DNA of 10,710 nucleotides, taken from the IMG/VR virus record IMGVR_UViG_2778261453_000020. One strand, written 5' to 3'. The notes under the pieces were generated by a model. It was not told the DNA's origin, searched no databases, and saw nothing but the letters and a program-made list of their open reading frames with translations. The stretch comes from a virus (lineage: Duplodnaviria > Heunggongvirae > Uroviricota > Caudoviricetes). The first letter of the stretch is position 1, and every line of letters begins with the position of its first letter. Below are positions 1 through 10,710 of this stretch, piece by piece. The translations under genes and the position numbers were made by a program.

Positions 1-291
1 AATGAAACACGCCAGTTCGCCCGGATGTTGGGACTTGAACCGAAGAACACGGCGGTGCGGAGTCCGGAGAGTAACGGAATAGCAGAGAGCTTCGTGAAAA
101 CGATAAAGCGTGACTACATCAGTATCATGCCCAAACCAGACGGGTTAACGGCAGCAAAGAACCTTGCAGAGGCGTTCGAGCATTATAACGAATGGCATCC
201 GCATAGTGCGCTGGGTTATCGCTCGCCACGGGAATATCTGCGGCAGCGGGCTTGTAATGGGTTAAGTGATAACAGATGTCTGGAAATATAG
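1..291 (+). CDS. insD: IS2 transposase OrfB/InsD, C-terminal fragment (5' end outside window)
   Basis: Same frame as track ORF 25-291 but open back to nt 1. Stop TAG at 289-291 lies inside the terminal inverted repeat. Sequence recognition from memory of IS3-family integrase-core C-termini. Confidence 0.7.
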
Positions 292-302
292 GGGCAAATC
301 CA
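1..302 (+). mobile_element. IS2 (IS3 family) right end, partial; the window begins inside the element
   Basis: The frame open from nt 1 translates to ...[40 protein letters not shown]...[29 protein letters not shown], which I recognise as the C-terminus of IS2 OrfB/InsD. The terminal sequence ...CAGATGTCTGGAAATATAGGGGCAAATCCA ending at 302 matches my recollection of the IS2 right inverted repeat. The exact end is from memory, not alignment. Confidence 0.7.
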
Positions 303-1910
303 AGTATCACGTATTCCTCTAAAGCCATCTCTGAAAATATGGTTATCAACAATGGCCGCGCTAATGTCTGGGCTGGCACAATGGTTAACGTGTCAGTCAG
401 AGGGAATGATGGCATTCTTGAGGTCATGAAGCCGCAAATAAATTATGCACCCGCTATGTTGGTGGGTAAGGTAGTGGTTTCTGAGGGCGCTTCTTTTAGA
501 ACGCATGGTGCCGTGGATACCAGCAAAGCGGACGTTTCGCTCGAAAATAGCGTATGGACCATCATTGCCGATATCACTACGACGAACCAAAACACCCTCC
601 TCAACTTAGCCAACCTTGCGATGTCTGACGCAAATGTGATTATGATGGATGAGCCAGTGACTCGTTCATCAGTGACGGCAAGTGCGGAAAATTTCATTAC
701 GTTGAACACCAATACCCTGTCGGGAAACGGCAATTTTTATATGCGTACCGATATGGCTAATCATCAGAGCGATCAGCTCAACGTCACCGGTCAGGCAACA
801 GGTGATTTCAAAATATTCGTGACGGACACCGGTGCCAGCCCGGCAGCAGGAGATAGCCTTACACTGGTAACAACGGGCGGCGGTGATGCTGCATTTACGT
901 TGGGCAATGCCGGAGGCGTTGTTGATATCGGTACGTATGAATATACCTTGCTGGATAATGGCAACCATAGCTGGAGTTTGGCAGAGAATCGCGCGCAAAT
1001 TACCCCTTCAACCACTGATGTGCTGAATATGGCGGCCGCACAACCGCTGGTATTTGATGCAGAACTGGACACCGTGCGTGAGCGTCTTGGTAGCGTAAAA
1101 GGCGTTAGTTACGATACGGCGATGTGGAGTTCGGCAATTAACACCCGCAACAACGTGACCACTGATGCGGGAGCTGGTTTTGAGCAAACATTGACGGGCC
1201 TGACGCTCGGTATCGATAGCCGTTTCTCCCGTGAAGAAAGCAGTACAATTCGCGGCTTGTTCTTTGGTTACTCTCATTCTGATATTGGTTTTGATCGCGG
1301 CGGAAAAGGTAATATCGATAGCTATACCCTGGGGGCTTATGCCGGTTGGGAGCATCAGAACGGTGCCTATGTTGATGGGGTGGTGAAAGTTGACCGTTTT
1401 GCCAACACCATCCATGGCAAGATGAGTAATGGGGCAACAGCGTTTGGCGATTACAATAGTAACGGCGCGGGTGCTCATGTTGAGAGCGGGTTCCGTTGGG
1501 TTGACGGATTGTGGAGTATTAGACCCTATCTGGCCTTTACCGGCTTTACCACAGATGGTCAGGACTACACGTTATCAAACGGCATGCGCGCTGATGTGGG
1601 AAATACCCGGATATTACGCGCTGAAGCGGGAACGGCGGTAAGCTATCACATGGACCTGCAAAATGGTACGACGCTGGAACCCTGGCTGAAAGCCGCCGTA
1701 CGTCAGGAATACGCCGATTCTAACCATGTGAAAGTTAATGACGATGGCAAATTTAATAATGATGTGGCTGGAACCCGTGGCGTTTATCAGGCTGGGATAA
1801 GGTCATCGTTTACCCCGACGTTAAGCGGTCATTTGTCAGTCAGCTATGGCAATGGCGCAGGGGTAGAATCGCCGTGGAATACTCAGGCGGGTGTGGTCTG
1901 GACGTTCTGA
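303..1910 (+). pseudogene. Type Va autotransporter adhesin, C-terminal passenger and beta-barrel portion; gene interrupted by IS2
   Basis: Track ORF 276-1910 has its ATG inside the IS2 end, so that start is an artefact. Translation is Gly/Thr/Asn/Ser-rich with repeated passenger-like segments and ends ...NTQAGVVWTF with a terminal aromatic residue, typical of autotransporter barrels. The 5' part of the gene must lie beyond the IS outside the window. Confidence 0.7.
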
Positions 1911-2228: not shown

Positions 2229-3155
2229 TCAGTTTTTAGCCAGAGCGGTGACGGCCTTATCTAGTTTTTGCCATCCGCAATAGGTGATTGCCCTGAACGC
2301 TGTAGCGTCATTCTGGAAAAGACTAACCGCCCCTGATTCGGTTTTTATTACCGCCTCATCAGTTGGGGTTATAACCGTGGCTTCAACGTTAATAATCAGC
2401 TTTTGAGCGTCTATCAGCATCATGCGATCCGCCTGTTCGCTCACAATTACCGGTATTCTCAAAAGCTCTATCTGCCAGAACTCAGCATCAGTAAGCTGTA
2501 AGGCGTTTTCTACGGGCAAGATTAGCGACGACGTGGCGAGCGTGTTACCGTTCGCTATGTGTTTTTTGAAAAGCTCTATAAAGTTTTCTGCTTCATCTGC
2601 ACCGTTAAGCACGCCTTCAGGTGACACGCCTTCTTCCTCCTGGTCACTGGAAAGAAATTTTTTATTAATTTCTTTCACCGATTCCGATGTGATCAAGTCT
2701 CTGATAGCTGAATTTGTACCAGGGGTGCTAAATTTGATTAGCTCGTTATTCAGCATCACAATAGCGCCGAGTTTGCACAGTTTTAGCGCACTTTCGTTAA
2801 CTTCTCCCTCTTTGACAGGGATTTCTTCGGCTTCTTTAAGCCATTTACTACCCTTGCCTGATATTGACTGCAATTTTGCGCCAAACGGAAGATTTAGCGC
2901 GCTGCTGATTAGCTTGCCTGGTACAGACTGCGAAAAAATATACTCGCCAAGCTCTCTTACTATCGGCTCTGCCACCAGCGACGGCATATTATCCGTAGTC
3001 ATTCCGGCAACAATGGATTTTTCAAGAAATTTCGATACTGCCGGATCATTTTTTTTCGTCATTTCAATTGCGTCTGCATGGCTGAATTTACACGATGTAA
3101 GCACGCTGGCGGCGCGAACTGCCGACACGCCTTTCATGTTTTTAGAAATCATCAT
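2229..3155 (-). CDS. HK97-fold major capsid protein-like (Phage_capsid family), 308 aa
   Basis: The central region KLGAIVMLNNELIKFS...SAIRDLITSESVKEINKKFLSSDQEEEGVSPEGVL and the following ...SSLILPVENALQL...IPVIVS... follow the residue pattern I recall for HK97 gp5-type capsid proteins (K.hA..h.....hL.GDG.....EGL, then ...GIVLNP...). Its ATG overlaps the stop of the preceding small ORF. Confidence 0.5.
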   Translation of the reverse strand: MMISKNMKGVSAVRAASVLTSCKFSHADAIEMTKKNDPAVSKFLEKSIVAGMTTDNMPSLVAEPIVRELGEYIFSQSVPGKLISSALNLPFGAKLQSISGKGSKWLKEAEEIPVKEGEVNESALKLCKLGAIVMLNNELIKFSTPGTNSAIRDLITSESVKEINKKFLSSDQEEEGVSPEGVLNGADEAENFIELFKKHIANGNTLATSSLILPVENALQLTDAEFWQIELLRIPVIVSEQADRMMLIDAQKLIINVEATVITPTDEAVIKTESGAVSLFQNDATAFRAITYCGWQKLDKAVTALAKN

Positions 3156-3314: not shown

Positions 3315-3803
3315 TCAGTGTTTTAAGCCTGTTGGTGGCTTAGGGATGGGGAACCGATTTGAGGAGACATTAGCGGCATTGAGTTTTTTAACCTCTTTTT
3401 TCCCAATGCTGCCGATCTTGCGGTGGGTGAACTGGGCCAGCTTAAACGCGGCATCTAAAGCCAGTTTTGGATCTGTGTCTATGTTGTCAGCCAGTATCCT
3501 GCCCATAGCTTTGATAGGGTCGGGCAAGCCGTTGTCCATCCGTTCTATGGTGCTGATTGATGCCCGTTCCGGTGTAACTTTTTCGGTAACTTTCTTTGTA
3601 ACTTTTTTCGGTTTTGTAACCTGAAAAGTTACATCAGGAGTTACAGCCTTAAGATACTTTTTCACCTCAGGCTCGTTGGATAGCTGCCAGCCTTTAACCC
3701 TTGCGGTCTTTTCGCTGTATCCCGCATGTATAGCGGCTTCCGTGGGATTTGCGCCCCTTGATAACGCATCAGCAAACCGCTTTTTTTTGGTCGTTAATGC
3801 CAT
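3315..3803 (-). CDS. Terminase small subunit (TerS), 162 aa
   Basis: Track ORF 3315-3941, but the N-terminal 46 residues are low-complexity read-through. Start placed at MALTTKKKRFADALSRGANPTEAAIHAGYSEKTARVKGWQLSNEPEVKKYL, which matches the N-terminal helix-turn-helix pattern of TerS proteins (AGYS.KTA...G..LL..P.V..YL). GAGG lies 7 nt upstream of this ATG. Confidence 0.6.
   Translation of the reverse strand: MALTTKKKRFADALSRGANPTEAAIHAGYSEKTARVKGWQLSNEPEVKKYLKAVTPDVTFQVTKPKKVTKKVTEKVTPERASISTIERMDNGLPDPIKAMGRILADNIDTDPKLALDAAFKLAQFTHRKIGSIGKKEVKKLNAANVSSNRFPIPKPPTGLKH
3574..3644. repeat. Six GTAAC pentamers at 12-bp periodicity inside terS (four direct, two inverted)
   Basis: GTAAC at 3574, 3586, 3598 and 3616, then GTTAC at 3628 and 3640. 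On the coding strand this spans the KVT-rich linker ...VTKPKKVTKKVTEKVTPE of TerS. Confidence 0.55.
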
Positions 3804-4376: not shown

Positions 4377-4400
4377 AAAAAAAAGCCGGAGCGATCCGGC
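4377..4400 (-). terminator. Rho-independent terminator after ssb
   Basis: Minus strand reads GCCGGA-TCGC-TCCGGC followed by U8, 17 nt after the ssb stop. Confidence 0.7.
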
Positions 4401-4416
4401 TTCTGTTACTCGTTGC

Positions 4417-4827
4417 TTAAAACGGAATATCATCACCGTAGGGGTCATCGCCTCCCGCTGGTGGCTGATTACCCTGTGTGCCTGTGGTTTTGCGTCTGCT
4501 CCCGCCAGGACACGCCGTCTTCGCACTGATTACGCTGTCTGCGATAACCTGCCAGCCCTGCCGTGTTTCCCCGTTCTGTTCGGTCCACTGGCTGACCTGC
4601 ATCGTGCCGGATACGCTGGCAACGTCACCCTTTTGATGTTTAGCCAGGTAGTCGGCCTGCTTACCAAATGCGATGACCGATAGCCATAACGTCGCCTGTC
4701 CATCCTGTGCCTGGCTGCATGGCAACGATACCGCCATACGCGCCAGCGTCATTGGTGTACCCTTGCTGGTCTGTTTTACCTGCGGGTCAGCCACCAGCCG
4801 TCCGTAAGCCGCTATCTGTGCTGTCAT
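4417..4827 (-). CDS. ssb: Single-stranded DNA-binding protein (SSB-like), 136 aa
   Basis: OB-fold-like N-terminus (...LWLSVIAFGKQADYLAKHQKGDVASVSGTMQVSQWTEQNGETRQGW...), Gly/Pro-rich linker and the acidic tail ...GDDPYGDDIPF characteristic of bacterial and phage SSBs. Its ATG overlaps the upstream stop as ATGA. Confidence 0.65.
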   Translation of the reverse strand: MTAQIAAYGRLVADPQVKQTSKGTPMTLARMAVSLPCSQAQDGQATLWLSVIAFGKQADYLAKHQKGDVASVSGTMQVSQWTEQNGETRQGWQVIADSVISAKTACPGGSRRKTTGTQGNQPPAGGDDPYGDDIPF

Positions 4828-5075
4828 GCTGTCTGCTCTCCGGTTTTAACGTTGATGGTTGTTACCTGTTCCGCTTCGGCAATCTCCCGTTCTGTCAGCG
4901 TGGCAAAGTTTGCCGCCGCCGTTGTCATGAATGCGCTTATCAGTTCAGGATGTGTTTTCGCGTATCCTTCCCCGGCGTGGCGGTCTATCGTTCTGATTGC
5001 CACCTTTAAGGCGTGCTCTGTCATGTCTAATGCGCGATATTTTGGCGCTGTCTTATCTCTGGTTTTTCTGTTCAT
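4824..5075 (-). CDS. Hypothetical protein, 83 aa (alternative start at 5024 gives 66 aa)
   Basis: Track ORF with GGGAG 9 nt upstream of the ATG at 5075; its stop overlaps the ssb start. No recognisable family. Confidence 0.4.
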   Translation of the reverse strand: MNRKTRDKTAPKYRALDMTEHALKVAIRTIDRHAGEGYAKTHPELISAFMTTAAANFATLTEREIAEAEQVTTINVKTGEQTA

Positions 5076-5288
5076 TCCCCACTACTCCCCACTTTTGTTC
5101 CCCACTTTTTAAATTCCCCACTTGCTCCCCACGTCGTTTTTTTGGTGAATCTAATGCTTTGTTTTTCATTGCGTTTTTTACTCCCCACTTTTTTGGATGT
5201 ATACAGGTGGGAAAGTGGGGAATTATGTTTTTATTTTGTTAAATTCCCCACTATCCCCACTTTTATTACCCACTTTTTACAGTGGGTA
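5076..5288. repeat. Iteron-like array of octamer TCCCCACT (about 9 direct and 2-3 inverted copies); candidate replication origin
   Basis: Direct copies at 5076, 5086, 5099, 5115, 5126 (variant TCCCCACG), 5182, 5245, 5255 and 5267 (variant TACCCACT). Inverted AGTGGGGA at 5215, with degenerate inverted copies at 5205 and 5281. Spacings of 10-13 bp. An AT-rich tract at 5134-5180 separates two clusters. Confidence 0.6.
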
Positions 5289-6683
5289 AACATCATCCCC
5301 ATCGACACAAATCACGCCGTCTTTTTCCAGCTTGGACAGCCAGCGCCGGAAGTGCTTCATCTCATATCCCAGCTTTTTCATATCGTCGCGGAGAAGGGCG
5401 ATAGTGCATGGTTCTTTGTGTGCCGTCCGCGTTCTGATGCACTGCCATAGCGCCGCGTGATTCTCCGATTTGTTGCCTGCTTCCTCGATGCGCTCCAGTT
5501 CAGCAGGGGCGCGGGGAACGTCAATCACCACCATGGACACAATCTCTTCGCCATCTGTATCGGTGAACACCTCCACGCTTTTAAGGTCGTATGCACTTTC
5601 TTTTGGCTCCTCTGCGTCCTTCATCTTCGTGCATGCCGCCACCAGTGCTGTAACGTCTGAATTTTCCCGACTGATTCGGAACTCAGCATCAAGCGCCGCA
5701 CGGAATGCGCTGGAACCGCGCGCCCCTTTCGTCTCATCCTTGCCGGAATGGTGAACCACCAGCACGGTAGCCCCTGTTGCCTGCTTTATCGCGTCACATC
5801 CCTGGATAAATGCGCCCATGTCGCGGGAGTCATTTTCATCATGACCGCCAAAGCAACGGGCCAGCGTATCAATGACGATCATCCGCACCCGTTCGCCCGT
5901 TGTGCTCTGCACAAATCCGGCAGTCCTTATTACCTGTTCCACATAGTCCGGCGATGCGGGGAATACTGGCGAATTGACGATACACAAATCAGTAACCTCC
6001 TTACCGTGGGTTATTTCCCATGCCTTAACGCGGCGTTTTACGCCCATGCTGCCTTCACCAGCAACATAGATAACCGCGCCTTTACACACCCTTCGGCCTC
6101 CCCATTTCATGCCAGTAGCAACATGACACGCCCACGAAATGGCGAGGAACGATTTATAAGAACCGCTGGCTCCGTAGGTGCTGCATAATGACTCAGCCGG
6201 AATAAGCCCCTTAATTACGTAGCTTTGCTGCGCGTCGAATCCCTCAGACCCCCATGAGATGGGAAGTGTGATTTTTCGCTTTCCGCCATTCATGACCAGG
6301 CTTTCCCCACGTTCCCAGGTTTCTTTAAGCCGCGGTAGTTGCTCGCTCCAGTCCTCCAGCAATTCGAAATTTTCAGAAAGTAGCCGCGCCTCCTGGACTC
6401 CGGCGATCGCCAGTTTTGTGGCAATGGTCAGCATCTGCATATCGTCCAGATTTCCGGCACGTATGACCTTTGTCCTGTATCGTCCTTCATCAACAATCTG
6501 TAAGTTGTCCAGTTCGTTTAACTGATAACGGCCCAGGTAAACCGGAGGGATGGGATCGCCCGCTTTTTTGGCCTGCGCAATCATGTAATGTTCTGCAAAG
6601 GAGTGAGCATCATTCCCCGCGAAAATAATTGCTTCGGTGTGTTTGTCTTTCGGTAATAGTTTTACGTTCGGTGCCAGTTTCAT
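5277..6683 (-). CDS. RepA-like replicative helicase / replication initiator (RecA-fold ATPase), 468 aa
   Basis: P-loop-like YGASGSYKS, Walker-B-like RMIVIDTL, and ATVLVVHHSGKD, which is the HHxGK motif I associate with RepA/DnaB-like phage and plasmid helicases. The C-terminal approx. 70 aa look like a possible DNA-binding domain, and the gene ends inside the iteron array. Confidence 0.6.
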   Translation of the reverse strand: MKLAPNVKLLPKDKHTEAIIFAGNDAHSFAEHYMIAQAKKAGDPIPPVYLGRYQLNELDNLQIVDEGRYRTKVIRAGNLDDMQMLTIATKLAIAGVQEARLLSENFELLEDWSEQLPRLKETWERGESLVMNGGKRKITLPISWGSEGFDAQQSYVIKGLIPAESLCSTYGASGSYKSFLAISWACHVATGMKWGGRRVCKGAVIYVAGEGSMGVKRRVKAWEITHGKEVTDLCIVNSPVFPASPDYVEQVIRTAGFVQSTTGERVRMIVIDTLARCFGGHDENDSRDMGAFIQGCDAIKQATGATVLVVHHSGKDETKGARGSSAFRAALDAEFRISRENSDVTALVAACTKMKDAEEPKESAYDLKSVEVFTDTDGEEIVSMVVIDVPRAPAELERIEEAGNKSENHAALWQCIRTRTAHKEPCTIALLRDDMKKLGYEMKHFRRWLSKLEKDGVICVDGDDVYPL

Positions 6684-6979
6684 TTTTTACCCCTGAATAC
6701 ATTCAACATCTTTCTTATTTCCTGAATATTGGCGCGTGCTTTCTCCCTGCTGGTGGGCTTACTGCGTTGCGCTGCCTGCACCAATGTAAAATCACGGGCG
6801 AACTGATAAACAGGCATCACGCAATCATATTCGTAGCCTTCACGACGGTAGGTTACGCGCCGTTCCTCCACGCCCTTAATCATTACCGTGCCGCCGTACT
6901 GGTCGCGGTAAATATCACCGCGCATGAATTTAGTGCGAGTTTTGCCACTGGCAGTTAAGCCAGAATATCTAAGTTTCAT
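6680..6979 (-). CDS. Hypothetical protein, 99 aa
   Basis: Track ORF with GGAG 9 nt upstream of the ATG; its stop overlaps the helicase ATG as ATGA. Confidence 0.45.
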   Translation of the reverse strand: MKLRYSGLTASGKTRTKFMRGDIYRDQYGGTVMIKGVEERRVTYRREGYEYDCVMPVYQFARDFTLVQAAQRSKPTSREKARANIQEIRKMLNVFRGKK

Positions 6980-6984
6980 TATTT

Positions 6985-7215
6985 TTATTCTCCGGTATGG
7001 GGCGAGTTATTATTCTCGTGAATTGCCATTGCCTTATCCAGTTCATCAATAACAGGCGATAGTAATGTCTGAATGGCTGCAAACATTAATGACGCAGCTT
7101 CTTTTCCATCTTCCGGCGCTTCAATTAATTTGCCTAACAACGCATTCATTTCGCGTGCTTTAATTAATGCGTTTTCAGAGTGGATTAATATTTCAAAAGG
7201 GATTTTATGCATCAC
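6985..7215 (-). CDS. Hypothetical helical protein, about 75 aa
   Basis: Track ORF with GTG at 7215 or ATG at 7212; AGGGAG lies upstream. It overlaps the 3' end of the preceding ORF. Confidence 0.4.
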   Translation of the reverse strand: MMHKIPFEILIHSENALIKAREMNALLGKLIEAPEDGKEAASLMFAAIQTLLSPVIDELDKAMAIHENNNSPHTGE

Positions 7216-7435
7216 AAATTTTCTCCCTTATTCTTTTAATGTCCTCATTAAGGATGTCTGTAACTTTTATCAGCGAGTTTTTGGCAATTATTTTTATTGT
7301 TTTAAGTTTTCTTTTGTCGTGCTCCGACTGTGATTTTCTCTCCATAATCTCCACCATGTGGGTAACATCAACGAGCGCACGTATCAGTATTTGCATTGCT
7401 TCTTCTGCTGCGTCCGGACGGGTGTTATTGCACAT
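7205..7435 (-). CDS. Hypothetical protein, 76 aa
   Basis: Track ORF 7205-7465, trimmed to the ATG at 7435 (AGGGGG 6 nt upstream) because the longer form would overlap the Icd-like gene by 40 nt. The C-terminal half is encoded in an AT-rich stretch (about 7205-7330). Confidence 0.4.
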   Translation of the reverse strand: MCNNTRPDAAEEAMQILIRALVDVTHMVEIMERKSQSEHDKRKLKTIKIIAKNSLIKVTDILNEDIKRIREKICDA

Positions 7436-7598
7436 GGCACACCCCCTGACGAATACGGGCGACAAAAATCAGATGTGCGTGCGGCAGCTGCGCACGGGCT
7501 TCGCGCTCAGTGGCAGCGGTAACGGTGAAAATATCAATGTTGCTGTGGTGGCACTGCATAAAGCGCCAGACAAAGTAAGGGCGTGCGGATACAGCCAT
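7425..7598 (-). CDS. Icd-like (host cell-division inhibitor family) small protein, 57 aa
   Basis: MAVSARPYFVWRFMQCHHSNIDIFTVTAATEREARAQLPHAHLIFVARIRQGVCHVQ*, with GGGAG 8 nt upstream of the ATG. Paralogous to the 7885-8082 ORF (shared FVWRF, TEREAR, ARIRQG). The Icd-like assignment is from memory of P1/P4-type family patterns. Confidence 0.5.
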   Translation of the reverse strand: MAVSARPYFVWRFMQCHHSNIDIFTVTAATEREARAQLPHAHLIFVARIRQGVCHVQ

Positions 7599-7762
7599 GT
7601 GAAAGGCTCCCAGATGAATTATAAGGAGTCTCGCTACTACGCTGCTAAACGGGGTGGCGAGACGTAACAGGGTTAGCAGACTGGTCATCTGGAAACCAGC
7701 GAGCGCAAAGGCTCCCCCGTTACGCCCCGCCATAATGCGGGTATGGGTAGGTTTACGGACAC

Positions 7763-7884
7763 AAAAAAACCGCTTATCGGATGTGGGCGGCTGTCCGCCA
7801 GATGTATTCAGGCTGCTAAACCCGGTCGCCATGTGGGCGACGGGGGAAGCATACAGCCCCGTGATAATTTTTTGCAAGCGGTTT
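7763..7884 (-). ncRNA. Candidate structured RNA (multi-stem, cloverleaf-like) ending in a U7 tract, between the two Icd-like genes
   Basis: On the minus strand, AAAAACCGCUU (7884-7874) can pair with AAGCGGUUUUU (7775-7765). This encloses hairpins GGGG/CCCC, GUCGCC-CACAU-GGCGAC and GGCGG-ACAG-CCGCC. Folds were judged by eye only. Confidence 0.25.
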
Positions 7885-8082
7885 TTACGCATGATGTGAC
7901 CCCTGACGAATACGGGCGGCGAATACAGCAACACAACCTGACGGGCAACGGTTACGCGCTTCGCGTTCCGTCCAGGCGGTTACGTGGATGATTTGAGATT
8001 CTCCGGCACTCAGGGCCAGAAAACGCCACACAAAGGCCGTTTGTGTGTGTACAAGGTGTGGTATATGATTTACGGCAACCAT
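7885..8082 (-). CDS. Icd-like small protein, 65 aa
   Basis: MVAVNHIPHLVHTQTAFVWRFLALSAGESQIIHVTAWTEREARNRCPSGCVAVFAARIRQGSHHA*, with AGGAG 5 nt upstream of the ATG. The track shows this as the 3' end of a 288-aa ORF, which I reject. Confidence 0.5.
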   Translation of the reverse strand: MVAVNHIPHLVHTQTAFVWRFLALSAGESQIIHVTAWTEREARNRCPSGCVAVFAARIRQGSHHA

Positions 8083-8170
8083 AACGGCTCCTAGTTTACG
8101 TTGTTGGTTAGACGCCCCGTATGTGTTCCCAGCACTGCGGGGCGTTGATTTTTGTGTAATGGCAAGTACA

Positions 8171-8219
8171 ATGGTAATTACCATGTAGGTATAGTAATGA
8201 AGGGTAATTACCATGTCAA
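8171..8219 (-). promoter_or_regulatory. Sigma70-like promoter (TTGACA-17-TACTAT) for the icd/replication operon with two palindromic operators
   Basis: Minus-strand -35 TTGACA (8219-8214), 17-nt spacer, -10 TACTAT (8196-8191). Perfect palindrome GGTAATTACC at 8203-8212 sits in the spacer. ATGGTAATTACCAT at 8171-8184 sits at about +1 to +14. Confidence 0.5.
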
Positions 8220-8386
8220 CACCATTAGAAAAACGTTCGCCTCCATACCAAATGCGATTACCGGAAGACTTCAGAGCGCAGCTAGAAGAAGCAGCTAAGG
8301 CCGATGGCGACACATCTTTAGCCACTTGGATTAAACGCGTTCTCCGCAAAGAATTACAGCAACGCGGCATAGAACCCAAAGGATAA
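8213..8386 (+). CDS. Ribbon-helix-helix (Arc/MetJ-like) DNA-binding protein, 57 aa; candidate repressor
   Basis: Hand translation MSTPLEKRSPPYQMRLPEDFRAQLEEAAKADGDTSLATWIKRVLRKELQQRGIEPKG*. YQMRLPEDFRAQLEEAAKADG...SLATWIKRVL fits the beta-strand/helix/helix pattern of Arc-type repressors. It is divergent from the operator-bearing promoter. Not in the supplied track; its own promoter was not identified. Confidence 0.55.
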   Translation: MSTPLEKRSPPYQMRLPEDFRAQLEEAAKADGDTSLATWIKRVLRKELQQRGIEPKG

Positions 8387-8765: not shown

Positions 8766-8972
8766 TTAAGCAGCCGTTCCGCGTGCTTCCTGTTCGCGTT
8801 CTTTCTGCCAGGCCAACACATCATCCTCATACCATCCGCGACGGCGTAAACCAACGCGAAAACCCTGCGGAAATTCTCCGGCGTTGATCATGCTTTGCAG
8901 CGTGCTGTCTGCCTTGATGTGGATAATTTTTTTTACTTCCTGGCGAAAGATAATTTTTCTGATTGCTTCCAT
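8766..8972 (-). CDS. alpA: AlpA-family (phage Vis/AlpA-type) DNA-binding regulator, 68 aa
   Basis: ...KIIHIKADSTLQSMINAGEFPQGFRVGLRRRGWYEDDVLAWQKERE... matches the AlpA helix-turn-helix pattern. It lies next to a P4-type integrase, as is usual for such islands. Confidence 0.7.
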   Translation of the reverse strand: MEAIRKIIFRQEVKKIIHIKADSTLQSMINAGEFPQGFRVGLRRRGWYEDDVLAWQKEREQEARGTAA

Positions 8973-9139: not shown

Positions 9140-9391
9140 TTACCGCCATTTTTTGGGCCTGCCTCCGATCTTCATAGATGCCGGACGTACGACCTTATCA
9201 ATACTTACCGCCAGATTTCTGGAAGCGCCACGGGATACCAGAAAATCTACTACCTGTTTTTTTGATGGGGCCGTCGTCCTGTCCTCCGGATCGTAGGTTG
9301 ACCAAAATTCATGCTGAACCATCAGGGCCAGTTGCAGCCCGTCGCAATTGCATCTGATATTTTTTTGCATCTTAACGGTTTCATGTTTCAC
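9140..9391 (-). CDS. Hypothetical small basic protein downstream of the integrase (83 aa from GTG, 76 aa from ATG at 9370)
   Basis: Track ORF with GTG start and weak Shine-Dalgarno sequences at both candidate starts. Basic C-terminus ...KIGGRPKKWR. Coding status is uncertain. Confidence 0.35.
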   Translation of the reverse strand: MKHETVKMQKNIRCNCDGLQLALMVQHEFWSTYDPEDRTTAPSKKQVVDFLVSRGASRNLAVSIDKVVRPASMKIGGRPKKWR

Positions 9392-9468: not shown

Positions 9469-10710
9469 CTACACGGCTCGGATACCCCTTTTACCACTGG
9501 CGAGGGTTACGCCCGTCGCCGCAGCCTCGACAAATTCGCCCCACCAGCGCATCAGCACGATGCGTTTTTCTATGTAGTTGCTCCGGTTGTATGCCCGTCT
9601 AACTTCGTTGGTGTCGACGTGGGCAAGTGCCGCCTCTATTACGTCCGGCTCGAATCCTTCCTCGTTCGCTGCTGTGCTGAATATGGCGCGTAATCCATGA
9701 GACACCAGCACGCCAGCAAATCCCATACGCCGCAATGCTGCGTTAGCTGTCTGGCTGTTCATCGGCTGCTGTGGGTCTTTCAGGCTTGGGAAAACGTAAT
9801 TGCGGTGGTGGCTGATTGGTTTCATGGCCTCCAGCACCGCCATAGCCTGACCGGAAAGCGGGATAACGTGATCCCTGCGCATCTTCATGCGTCCGGCAGG
9901 TATCGTCCATTGCTTCGCGTCCAGGTTGATTTCATCCCACCGCGTTGATGACGCTTCGGCGGGACGGGTTACGGTCAGTAACTGCCATTCAATCAGTAAT
10001 CTGGTCTGCCGTTCTGTTGCCGATACTGATAAAGCCTGCATAAGCTCCGGCAGCTGTTCGGGGCGGATTGTTGGCATATGTTTTTTTACAGGTGAGGGAA
10101 ACGCCTTACGCACATTCATAGCCGGATTGGCATCAATCAGCCCACTGTTGGCGGCGTAATCCATTACCTCATTAACGCGCTGTAAAACCCGCTTGAGTGT
10201 TTCCAGGTTGCCGCGCTCCTTGATGGGTGTAAGCACCTCAACGAATCTTCGGGCGGTGAGGGTATCTATTGGCGTGTTGCCGATGAACGGGAATACATAT
10301 TTATCCAGCGAACGCCAGATGTCTTTAATCGTGTTGGGGGCCAGATTCTGGCTGATTTTCACCTGGTACCATGCCGCCGCCACATTTTCGAACGTGTTCC
10401 CTTGTCTTCGGGCCTCTGTCTCTCTTTTTTGCCTCTCGTGGTCCTGCGGGTCAGTTCCGGCACGAATTAACGCCCTGTACTCGCTACGGCGTTTTCTGGC
10501 ATCAGCCAGGGAAACATCTTCAAGCGATCCAAAACTCAGCAATATTCTTTTTTTGTCCGATGGTCGGTAGTAGGAAAATCTCCAGAGTTTTGATCCAGAC
10601 GGTTTGACCAGGAGAAAAAGCCCTCCGCCGTCCTGCAGGGTGTACTCCTTTTGCGCTGGTCTGGCTGCTTTGATCTGCACTGTGGTTAATGGGTGTGTTT
10701 TTCTCGCCAT
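9469..10710 (-). CDS. P4-type tyrosine integrase, 413 aa
   Basis: N-terminal ...GLFLLVKPSGSKLWRFSYYRP... arm-binding-like domain. Catalytic-core motifs: R in ...TVTRPAEAS..., HGLRAIF (H-x-x-R), and ...ALAHVDTNEVRRAYNRSNYIEKR with the likely catalytic Tyr. The ATG is the final base of the window, so the promoter and attachment site are outside it. Confidence 0.85.
   Translation of the reverse strand: MARKTHPLTTVQIKAARPAQKEYTLQDGGGLFLLVKPSGSKLWRFSYYRPSDKKRILLSFGSLEDVSLADARKRRSEYRALIRAGTDPQDHERQKRETEARRQGNTFENVAAAWYQVKISQNLAPNTIKDIWRSLDKYVFPFIGNTPIDTLTARRFVEVLTPIKERGNLETLKRVLQRVNEVMDYAANSGLIDANPAMNVRKAFPSPVKKHMPTIRPEQLPELMQALSVSATERQTRLLIEWQLLTVTRPAEASSTRWDEINLDAKQWTIPAGRMKMRRDHVIPLSGQAMAVLEAMKPISHHRNYVFPSLKDPQQPMNSQTANAALRRMGFAGVLVSHGLRAIFSTAANEEGFEPDVIEAALAHVDTNEVRRAYNRSNYIEKRIVLMRWWGEFVEAAATGVTLASGKRGIRAV

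What the first reader, a model, noticed from the sequence alone, without database searches (positions are those of the whole stretch)
6680..7435. Three short unknown ORFs between the immunity and replication genes
The ORFs of 76, 75 and 99 aa are tightly packed with overlapping or adjacent stops and starts and have no family I can recognise. One lies in an AT-rich patch (about 7205-7330) that contrasts with the flanks. Satellite accessory genes in this position often encode helper-interference or anti-phage functions.
Basis: inference. Interest (0 to 1): 0.4.

Follow-up and report, generated by a model that had tools for sequence, protein, structure and literature searches.

The report
Three small genes in a satellite's early operon
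The three short reading frames are real genes of a phage-satellite island in E. coli: one belongs to the already studied RgdR family of small regulators, and the other two are fast-evolving optional helper genes of unknown function, so the finding is real but largely ordinary.

Summary
Three minus-strand ORFs lie at 7205-7435 (76 aa), 6985-7212 (75 aa) and 6680-6979 (99 aa). They sit between a P1/P4-type C4-antisense-RNA/Icd-like immunity region and a RepA-type helicase, with 11-, 8- and 4-nt overlaps. Bases 7205-7330 are 31.7% GC.

The 99-aa ORF is not unknown. It matches Pfam DUF4222 (E 2e-24) and is 91/99 identical to RgdR/ECs1581. RgdR is a published small basic regulator that activates LEE1 and represses motility. 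It is a core gene: 144 of 147 related islands carry it immediately before the replicase.

The other two ORFs are genuine but uncharacterised. One is predicted to be a helical hairpin. They belong to a slot holding 0-5 small genes from eight families in a fixed order, and they diverge about twice as fast as RgdR.

There is no match to known defence systems, to P4 epsilon or to solved structures. P4 epsilon occupies the same position. A published ECOR61 locus, where slot genes plus Icd-like cause phage-triggered growth arrest, makes a helper- or host-directed role plausible but untested.

Verdict: new members of a known kind, modest interest.

The parts
7205..7435 (-). orfA, 76 aa, pI 8.7. Family A of the variable slot. 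The N-terminal ~25 aa are conserved; the C-terminal part is AT-rich and divergent.
   Evidence: ORF list. Matches phrog_5146 at E 2e-8. 24 close protein clusters, all Escherichia, and only one cluster among 1.8 billion representatives. Family alignment A3. Full-length copies in 43 of 5426 E. coli genomes.
6985..7212 (-). orfB, 75 aa from ATG (GTG alternative at 7215), pI 5.05. Family B, predicted helical hairpin, always the last slot gene before DUF4222.
   Evidence: Matches phrog_2196 at E 1e-9. 92 protein clusters. AF2 gives helices 6-31 and 36-68, pLDDT 79.8. Full-length copies in 140 of 5426 genomes.
6680..6979 (-). orfC, 99 aa, pI 10.3. RgdR-family (DUF4222) small basic protein with R20-G21-D22. 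Overlaps the helicase start by 4 nt.
   Evidence: PF13973 at 85.2 bits against a cut-off of 27. 91/99 identical to the O157:H7 protein whose mass and pI equal those published for ECs1581 (PMC3378721). dN/dS 0.13-0.31.
7205..7330 (.). AT-rich patch (31.7% GC) inside orfA.
   Evidence: It coincides with the part of family A that is replaced between subtypes.
7425..7598 (-). Icd-like ORF no. 2 (57 aa). Its stop lies inside the start of orfA.
   Evidence: NF033153 at E 5.6e-14 on the C-terminus of the 7425-7934 frame. Start and RBS read from the sequence.
7650..7737 (-). C4-type antisense RNA gene of the immunity region.
   Evidence: Rfam RF01695 at 71.6 bits against a gathering score of 45, E 9.5e-13.
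7763..7854 (-). a1/b1 target sites of C4 and an isrK-like hairpin with a U-tract.
   Evidence: RF03163 at 45.5 bits (gathering 46.7) and RF01394 at 36.8 bits (gathering 50); both are below the gathering score. A b-type repeat CCGTTTAGCAG lies at 7652-7642.
7885..8082 (-). Icd-like ORF no. 1 (65 aa), first gene after the promoter.
   Evidence: NF033153 at E 8e-17. Start read from the sequence. RefSeq annotates the same 198-nt gene in relatives.
8191..8219 (-). Promoter-like site TTGACA-17-TACTAT, the candidate operon promoter.
   Evidence: Consensus scan, 10 of 12 matches. This is a pattern match only.
5277..6683 (-). RepA-family helicase (AAA_25), the replicase translationally coupled to orfC.
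   Evidence: PF13481 at E 3e-43. Its N-terminal ~125 aa are shared with primase and DUF927 replicases of related islands.
4381..4404 (-). Terminator-like hairpin after ssb, the probable end of the operon.
   Evidence: Consensus scan.

Best explanation
The three ORFs are genuine genes of the early, replication-side operon of an E. coli phage-inducible chromosomal island (PICI-type satellite). The island sits at the tRNA-Pro site between yejM and yejO.

Shown:
- The gene order is promoter-like site, Icd-like 1, C4 antisense RNA with its targets, Icd-like 2, orfA, orfB, orfC, RepA helicase, a small ORF and SSB.
- All are on one strand. Overlapping stops and starts run from Icd-like 2 through the helicase start (Icd-like 2/orfA/orfB, and orfC/helicase), with a 5-nt gap between orfB and orfC. 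The scan found no terminator-like hairpin from the three ORFs to the one after ssb; the only internal candidates lie upstream, inside the immunity region (8047-8027 and the isrK-like hairpin at 7763-7793).
- orfC is a member of the RgdR/DUF4222 family. These are small basic proteins (pI about 10) that bind DNA non-specifically. Published work shows they switch on the LEE1 promoter and switch off motility.
- In these islands RgdR is a core gene that always precedes the replicase.
- orfA and orfB are two of eight families of roughly 60-120-aa proteins. These families fill a slot in a fixed order, with presence/absence variation and rapid divergence.

Inferred:
- In the quiescent island the C4 RNA keeps expression past the Icd-like genes low, as in P1 and P4.
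- When a helper phage activates the island, read-through and translational coupling produce Icd-like, orfA, orfB, RgdR and the replicase together.
- orfA and orfB then act as small protein-binding modulators of helper or host targets. RgdR acts as a DNA-binding cofactor at the start of island replication or expression.
For: - Gene identities.
- Overlaps and ribosome-binding sites.
- Promoter-like site, and terminator-like hairpins only upstream in the immunity region and after ssb.
- Same order in P4 (orf88, cI, epsilon, orf151, orf106, alpha).
- Same order in the model island EcCICFT073.
- P1 immI order c4-icd-ant-kilA-repL: PMC8201110.
- RgdR identity: 91/99 residues, with the published mass and pI reproduced by the O157 copy. 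Published phenotypes: PMC3378721.
- Core versus variable: DUF4222 region in 1215 of 5426 genomes, orfB in 140 and orfA in 43. The replicase follows DUF4222 directly in 144 of 147 loci.
- The 114 non-redundant slots keep an ordered architecture.
- Median pairwise identity is 0.41 for family A, 0.37 for B and 0.70 for DUF4222.
- Homology blocks break at 6999/7000 and at 7405-7461.
- orfB is modelled as a helical hairpin.
Against: - No experiment or homology gives a function for families A or B.
- C4 control of the downstream genes is inferred from P1/P4. Only one b-type target repeat was found downstream of C4.
- Deletion of rgdR has a phenotype in uninduced O157 (PMC3378721). So the gene is expressed to some extent without helper induction, which a simple 'off until induced' model does not explain.
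- The promoter is only a consensus match.
- The IMG/VR survey was seeded with families A and B, so it over-represents them.
- The DUF4222 structure model is poor (pLDDT 60).
Confidence: 0.6

Rival explanations
1. Together with the Icd-like protein, orfA and orfB form an abortive-infection or superinfection-exclusion module. It arrests the cell when an incoming phage perturbs the island.
For: In ECOR61, Tn5 suppressors of cell death triggered by phage gene orf24 map to an Icd-like gene and the next two small genes. Six linked genes including a primase were needed to reconstitute the effect (bioRxiv 10.1101/2023.04.06.535777). The sizes (186 and 192 nt) and overlaps (8 and 1 nt) of those two genes equal those of the O157 island L010, which has the same slot. 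The slot genes diverge fast.
Against: The two ECOR61 genes correspond by size and overlap (inferred, no sequence compared) to families Z and X, and neither is in the window. None of the three ORFs or two relatives hits PADLOC. Known defence hotspots of P4-like satellites lie elsewhere, at gop-beta-cII near int. The fixed gene order looks like an operon with optional parts rather than a cargo hotspot. The ECOR61 effect could equally be island induction by the phage protein.
Confidence: 0.25
2. orfA (or orfB) is an epsilon/Ant-type antirepressor. It would bind the repressor of a resident helper prophage and induce it, as P4 epsilon does to P2 C and P1 Ant does to C1.
For: orfA occupies exactly the epsilon position, as the first ORF overlapping the end of the cI/Icd frame. 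It also occupies the Ant position downstream of c4-icd. Small size, a helical prediction for orfB and subtype diversity (9-11 subtypes at 60% identity) would fit repressor-specific binders.
Against: There is no match to PF25738 (Derepression family) or any antirepressor domain. hhalign of family A against epsilon gives a probability of 0.2%. Published work on Gram-negative PICIs describes helper-dependent alpA activation, not helper induction by the island (PMC6092414).
Confidence: 0.15
3. orfC/RgdR is primarily a replication accessory of the island, for example a partner of the shared N-terminal domain of the replicase or an origin-binding factor. Its LEE and motility effects would be side effects of a basic DNA-binding protein.
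For: The replicase follows DUF4222 directly in 144 of 147 loci, whatever its type. All those replicases share a ~125-aa N-terminal domain. The conserved homology block 6607-6999 spans RgdR plus the replicase start. The two genes share an ATGA overlap. DNA binding in gel-shift assays was non-specific.
Against: No replication phenotype has been reported. RgdR expressed alone changes LEE1 and motility in strains lacking the island. L005 has a B-like gene, not DUF4222, before a primase with the same N-domain. No structural support.
Confidence: 0.3
4. The short ORFs are chance frames in a non-coding leader of the helicase gene.
For: They are short, and long open frames also exist on the opposite strand.
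Against: The frames are preserved at 32-37% identity. dN/dS is below 1. Ribosome-binding sites and coupled starts are present. The frames match Pfam or PHROG profiles. RgdR is an experimentally studied protein.
Confidence: 0.02

Closest known systems
RgdR (ECs1581) of E. coli O157:H7 CP-933C/OI-51; orthologues c1493 (CFT073) and ECED1_1787 (ED1a); Pfam DUF4222
   Same: orfC is 99 aa, basic, and 91/99 identical. It keeps R20-G21-D22, Q27 and K35. Its position is the same, immediately before the island's replicase.
   Different: Eight substitutions, including D10A, H45R and R61A. The host context is unknown (LEE present or not). Activity on LEE1 or motility was not tested. The published work called the element a cryptic prophage, not a satellite.
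Phage P4 left operon: cI RNA, epsilon (helper derepression, PF25738), orf151, orf106 (DUF5375), alpha
   Same: Same order of AlpA-like gene, C4-type RNA/Icd frame, small ORFs and replicase. The first small ORF overlaps the end of the Icd/cI frame.
   Different: No sequence relationship of orfA/orfB with epsilon, of orfC with orf151, or with DUF5375. The replicase is a RepA helicase, not alpha.
Phage P1/P7 immI operon: c4 antisense RNA, icd, ant1/2 (then kilA-repL)
   Same: C4 RNA (Rfam hit above the gathering score), Icd-like domain, and the next gene overlapping the end of icd, ahead of a replication gene.
   Different: There are two tandem Icd-like ORFs. No Ant, KilA or Bro domain. Regulation was not tested.
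ECOR61 Icd-like 'superinfection exclusion' locus (Silas et al., bioRxiv 2023)
   Same: Same island type and slot: Icd-like, small genes, DUF4222 and a primase, inferred from matching gene sizes and overlaps with L010.
   Different: The genes hit there are inferred, from size and overlap matches to L010 only, to be families Z and X, which the window lacks. The window has A and B. The replicase type also differs.
Gram-negative PICIs such as EcCICFT073
   Same: int, AlpA-like HTH, replicase, SSB, terS and a capsid-family gene. The slot has the order X-A-Y-B-DUF4222.
   Different: The window's island has only A and B, a RepA helicase instead of a primase, and no PerC gene.

Membership tests
RgdR / DUF4222 (PF13973) | Profile match above Pfam's gathering score | tested here: met
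   85.2 bits against 27, E 2.2e-24, residues 17-68.
RgdR / DUF4222 (PF13973) | About 99 aa, strongly basic, conserved core at residues 20-68 | tested here: met
   99 aa, pI 10.31. The core differs from ECs1581 only at residues 45, 61 and 65 (PMC3378721).
RgdR / DUF4222 (PF13973) | Arg-Gly-Asp at residues 20-22 and Lys35, both reported as functionally important | tested here: met
   R20, G21, D22 and K35 are present. Across 114 related slots only 60 have RGD (PGD 38, NGD 11, CGD 2), so the motif does not define the wider family.
RgdR / DUF4222 (PF13973) | Activates the LEE1 promoter/T3S, represses motility, binds DNA non-specifically | not testable with these tools
   Published for ECs1581 and c1493 only.
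P4 epsilon / Derepression family (PF25738) | Sequence or profile similarity to epsilon | tested here: not met
   No Pfam hit for orfA or orfB at E<=0.1. P4 epsilon itself scores 170 bits. hhalign probability is 0.2%.
P4 epsilon / Derepression family (PF25738) | First ORF after the cI/Icd frame, overlapping its end, upstream of the replicase | tested here: met
   11-nt overlap at 7425-7435. The P4 map shows an 8-nt overlap.
P1-type immI module (c4-icd-ant) | C4 antisense RNA with upstream a1/b1 targets | tested here: met
   RF01695 at 71.6 bits (gathering 45). RF03163 at 45.5 bits is just under its gathering score of 46.7.
P1-type immI module (c4-icd-ant) | Icd-like ORF downstream of C4, coupled to the next gene | tested here: met
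   NF033153 at E 5.6e-14. Overlap with orfA.
P1-type immI module (c4-icd-ant) | Ant-type antirepressor domain in the coupled gene | tested here: not met
   No ANT, Bro or KilA family in the Pfam, NCBIfam or PHROG scans.
Known anti-phage defence systems (PADLOC-DB) | Match to any defence-protein model | tested here: not met
   No family at E<=1 for the three ORFs.
ECOR61 Icd-like cell-death locus | Presence of the two small genes hit by suppressor insertions (61-aa and 63-aa genes; assigned to families Z and X by size/overlap match to L010, not by sequence) | tested here: not met
   The window slot is (A, B). Z and X occur in L010, L001 and L012 but not here.
Gram-negative PICI satellite | Integrase, AlpA-like regulator, replicase and packaging gene(s) in an ~8.6-kb island at a tRNA/att site | tested here: met
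   int at 9469-10710, AlpA-like at 8766-8972, RepA, terS (PF03592) and a capsid-family gene. tRNA-Pro flanks int in L002 and L003, which are 98-99% identical over int. Helper-dependent induction was not tested.

The most novel reading that the evidence does not exclude
The slot is not cargo. It would be a co-linear, presence/absence array of small adaptor proteins, chained by translational coupling to the Icd-like division inhibitor and gated by the C4 antisense RNA. Families A and B would have a conserved N-terminal helix and a swappable C-terminal part. The array would be the island's helper- or host-targeting module: helper sensing, helper induction or host arrest.

RgdR's native job would be as a DNA-binding cofactor coupled to the shared N-terminal domain of the island replicases. 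Its well-known control of LEE virulence genes and motility would then be a by-product of satellite biology.
Probability: 0.25. Interest if true: 0.6.

Novelty: new member of a known kind. Interest (0 to 1): 0.35.

Why it matters
RgdR was described in 2012 as a 'prophage regulator' of type III secretion, before Gram-negative PICIs were recognised. This analysis places it as a core gene of the satellite replication operon. It lies next to the replicase in 144 of 147 islands and its region occurs in about 22% of complete E. coli genomes. That links a virulence regulator to satellite biology.

The ordered, fast-diverging small-gene slot between Icd-like and RgdR is a defined and cheap target for experiments. 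It could help explain how these islands act on helpers or hosts, which is still unclear for Gram-negative PICIs. For this particular window, however, nothing new in kind was found.

Tried and rejected
- **PADLOC scan** of the three ORFs and relatives: nothing.
- **tblastn against 50,697 phage records:** none for orfA. orfB gave one weak hit in a 16.5-kb satellite-like 'phage'. orfC gave one weak Klebsiella hit. These are satellite genes, not phage genes.
- **phmmer of orfA against 1.8 billion representatives:** only its own cluster.
- **PDB sequence searches:** nothing significant.
- **Foldseek of the orfB hairpin against PDB and BFVD:** no hit at E<=0.001, only generic helical hairpins.
- **orfA family related to P4 epsilon:** rejected.
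- **DUF4222 related to the N-terminus of P4 orf151:** a BLAST/hhalign hint failed an HMM test. The score was 0.4 bits, and 72 of 2000 shuffles scored as high or higher.
- **Genome-contig scan with DUF4222:** only 2 loci, because the patterns were narrow.
- **First automated slot gene caller:** it fused neighbouring genes and lumped families. I replaced it with a chained caller that reproduces the RefSeq calls.
- **EcCIMP1 paper:** its LEE repressor is a PerC-family protein, not RgdR.
Full report
**1. What is in the sequence**

The window's minus strand carries three short ORFs:
- orfA, 7205-7435, 76 aa from ATG;
- orfB, 6985-7212, 75 aa from ATG (76 aa from GTG at 7215);
- orfC, 6680-6979, 99 aa.

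Reading the mRNA-sense sequence shows how tightly they pack. The upstream Icd-like frame ends at 7425, 11 nt inside orfA. orfA ends 8-11 nt inside orfB. orfC starts 5 nt after the orfB stop. orfC and the next gene share an ATGA at 6680-6683. Each start has a GGAG/GGGG-type ribosome-binding site. The AT-rich patch is real: 31.7% GC at 7205-7330, against 55.5% at 7436-7934.

**2. Context**

The window is a small satellite island with these parts:
- integrase, 9469-10710;
- AlpA-like HTH, 8766-8972;
- a YlcI/Arc-like ORF on the other strand, 8213-8386;
- two Icd-like ORFs, 7885-8082 and 7425-7598, flanking a C4 antisense RNA (Rfam RF01695, 71.6 bits), its a1/b1 targets and an isrK-like hairpin;
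- the three ORFs;
- a RepA/AAA_25 helicase, 5277-6683;
- SSB, a small terminase, and a 308-aa capsid-family protein.

Close relatives in E. coli lie between tRNA-Pro/yejM and yejO. Exact copies of orfB and orfC are on record as E. coli proteins. A promoter-like site (TTGACA-17-TACTAT) lies at 8219-8191. Apart from two hairpins inside the immunity region (8047-8027 and the isrK-like one at 7763-7793), the next terminator-like hairpin on that strand is after ssb at 4404-4381. Nothing terminator-like separates the three ORFs from the helicase and ssb, so they appear to sit inside one early/replication operon.

P4 has the same order: orf88, cI, epsilon, orf151, orf106, alpha. P1 has c4-icd-ant followed by kilA-repL (PMC8201110).

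**3. The 99-aa ORF is a known family**

orfC matches Pfam DUF4222 at 85 bits. A review (PMC10877973) and the primary paper (PMC3378721) show that RgdR/ECs1581 of O157:H7 is a 99-aa DUF4222 protein of 11.704 kDa and pI 10.09. It has an RGD motif at residues 20-22. It activates the LEE1 promoter and type III secretion, represses motility, and binds DNA non-specifically. Its orthologues are c1493 (CFT073) and ECED1_1787 (ED1a, with an inactivating R20C).

The DUF4222 gene of the O157:H7 island L010 has exactly that mass and pI, and the diagnostic residues. orfC is 91/99 identical to it and keeps R20, G21, D22, Q27 and K35. In CFT073 the gene lies in the model island EcCICFT073, directly before the primase. 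dN/dS for this gene is 0.13-0.31.

**4. The slot**

Annotated relatives show 1-4 small genes between Icd-like and DUF4222. DUF4222 always overlaps by 4 nt a replicase that may be a RepA helicase, a 'DNA primase family' protein, a P4-family primase or a DUF927 protein. All these replicases share a ~125-aa N-terminal domain.

DNA homology between the window and its relatives breaks at 6999/7000 and at 7405-7461. L001 carries one extra gene inserted exactly at the Icd-stop/orfA-ATG junction.

I fetched 150 further loci from IMG/VR and analysed them with a chained gene caller that reproduces RefSeq's calls:
- 147 loci have Icd-like plus DUF4222. In 144 of them the replicase N-domain follows directly.
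- The 114 non-redundant slots hold 0-5 genes from eight families.
- With a few exceptions (for example (A,Y,family 4) in four slots), the order is [X or three rarer families], A, [one rarer family], Y, B, DUF4222.
- The window's (A,B) type is the commonest (33 slots), followed by (A,Y,B) 19, (B) 16 and (X,A,Y,B) 11.
- Median pairwise identity is 0.41 for A, 0.37 for B, 0.70 for DUF4222 and 0.54 for the Icd C-terminus.

This sample is biased towards A and B because they seeded it. In complete E. coli genomes, full-length copies of the window's orfA occur in 43 of 5426 and of orfB in 140. The DUF4222 region occurs in 1215.

**5. What orfA and orfB are**

They match only PHROG families of unknown function. 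They have no PADLOC hit, no true-phage homologue and no relative with a solved structure. orfA has no distant relative among 1.8 billion representatives.

orfB is modelled as a two-helix hairpin (pLDDT 80) with only generic fold matches.

Family A keeps a conserved N-terminal ~25 residues. Its C-terminal part is replaced between subtypes, and the AT-rich patch is that replaced part. No relationship to P4 epsilon was found.

**6. Function**

The shown steps are the anatomy, the family assignments and the conservation pattern. The regulatory reading is inferred from P1/P4: C4 limits expression past Icd, and helper activation gives coupled expression of Icd-like, A, B, RgdR and the replicase.

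The most relevant experiment is from Silas et al. (bioRxiv 10.1101/2023.04.06.535777). In ECOR61, cell death triggered by a phage accessory gene was suppressed by insertions in an Icd-like gene and the two following small genes. Six linked genes including a primase were needed to rebuild the effect. The sizes and overlaps of those two genes equal those of L010's first two slot genes (families Z and X). This shows that the slot can matter for phage-triggered arrest, but those two families are absent from the window.

I therefore rank the readings as follows:
- (a) small protein-binding modulators of helper or host targets, co-expressed with Icd-like and the replicase: the general statement;
- (b) part of an Icd-linked arrest or exclusion module: 0.25;
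- (c) epsilon/Ant-like antirepressor: 0.15.

For RgdR, a replicase-coupled DNA-binding cofactor is a serious, non-exclusive rival (0.3).

**7. Verdict**

One ORF is a member of a characterised family and is core, not cargo. The other two are uncharacterised, fast-evolving optional genes of a structured slot.

I rate this as a new member of a known kind, with interest of about 0.35. The useful by-products are the placement of RgdR as a core gene of the satellite replication operon and the ordered architecture of the slot.

Noticed in passing
window 7425-8082 (-): Two tandem Icd-like ORFs flank the C4 RNA, its a1/b1 targets and an isrK-like terminator hairpin. The long 'Icd-like with N-terminal extension' frame (7425-7934, annotated that way in RefSeq relatives) runs straight across the C4 RNA gene. 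Its extension is therefore probably not coding, as happened historically with P4 'cI'.
   Followed up: partly
window 8145-8386: A divergent pair of promoter-like sites lies here: minus strand 8219-8191 and plus strand 8145-8172. A 57-aa YlcI/YnfO, Arc-like ORF (8213-8386, +) faces the operon. This could be a repressor/operator switch that Gram-negative PICIs are said to lack.
   Followed up: no
window 6300-6683 (-); L006, L007, L008-L011, L005: Four catalytically different replicases (RepA helicase, primase family, P4-family primase, DUF927) share a ~125-aa N-terminal domain (MKLAPNVK...IIFAG.DAW...) at 42-64% identity. This domain follows DUF4222 in 144 of 147 loci.
   Followed up: partly
114 related slots (IMG/VR and E. 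coli loci): The eponymous RGD motif of RgdR is not conserved across the family. Residues 20-22 are RGD in 60 slots, PGD in 38, NGD in 11 and CGD in 2; only G21 and D22 are near-invariant. L002 carries the R20C change reported as inactive in ED1a.
   Followed up: partly
L002 8306-8539; L011 4456-4599: Family-B genes are decaying in some islands. One has an internal stop in L002 and one is truncated to 47 aa in L011. This suggests the gene is dispensable in the resident state.
   Followed up: no
window 6629-6958 (+): A 109-aa frame antisense to orfC stays open for 92 codons in eight of the nine loci compared (118 in L011). It is probably a shadow frame of a constrained gene, but this was not tested.
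   Followed up: partly
window 2229-3155 (-) and 3315-3803 (-): A short (308-aa) HK97-type capsid-family protein sits next to a small terminase, in an island with no portal or protease. It resembles the capsid-homologue interference genes of other satellites (c1499 in EcCICFT073, Ccm in SaPIbov5).
   Followed up: no
window 9140-9391 (-) and 4824-5075 (-): Two further 83-aa ORFs have no family hit in the libraries they were scanned against (9140-9391: Pfam, NCBIfam, PHROGs, PADLOC; 4824-5075: Pfam and PADLOC only). One lies between int and alpA, the other between the helicase and ssb. Both are annotated as hypothetical proteins in relatives.
   Followed up: no
window 1-1910 (+): An IS transposase C-terminal fragment (25-291) abuts the C-terminal part of the yejO autotransporter (276-1910). 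yejO is annotated as a pseudogene in the closest relatives.
   Followed up: no
L005 (LR881103.1, 'Escherichia phage vB_KppS-Ant', 16.5 kb): This record is deposited as a phage. Its gene content is integrase, primase with the PICI N-domain, a B-like small gene, capsid, portal and terminase, which is the content of a capsid-forming satellite.
   Followed up: no
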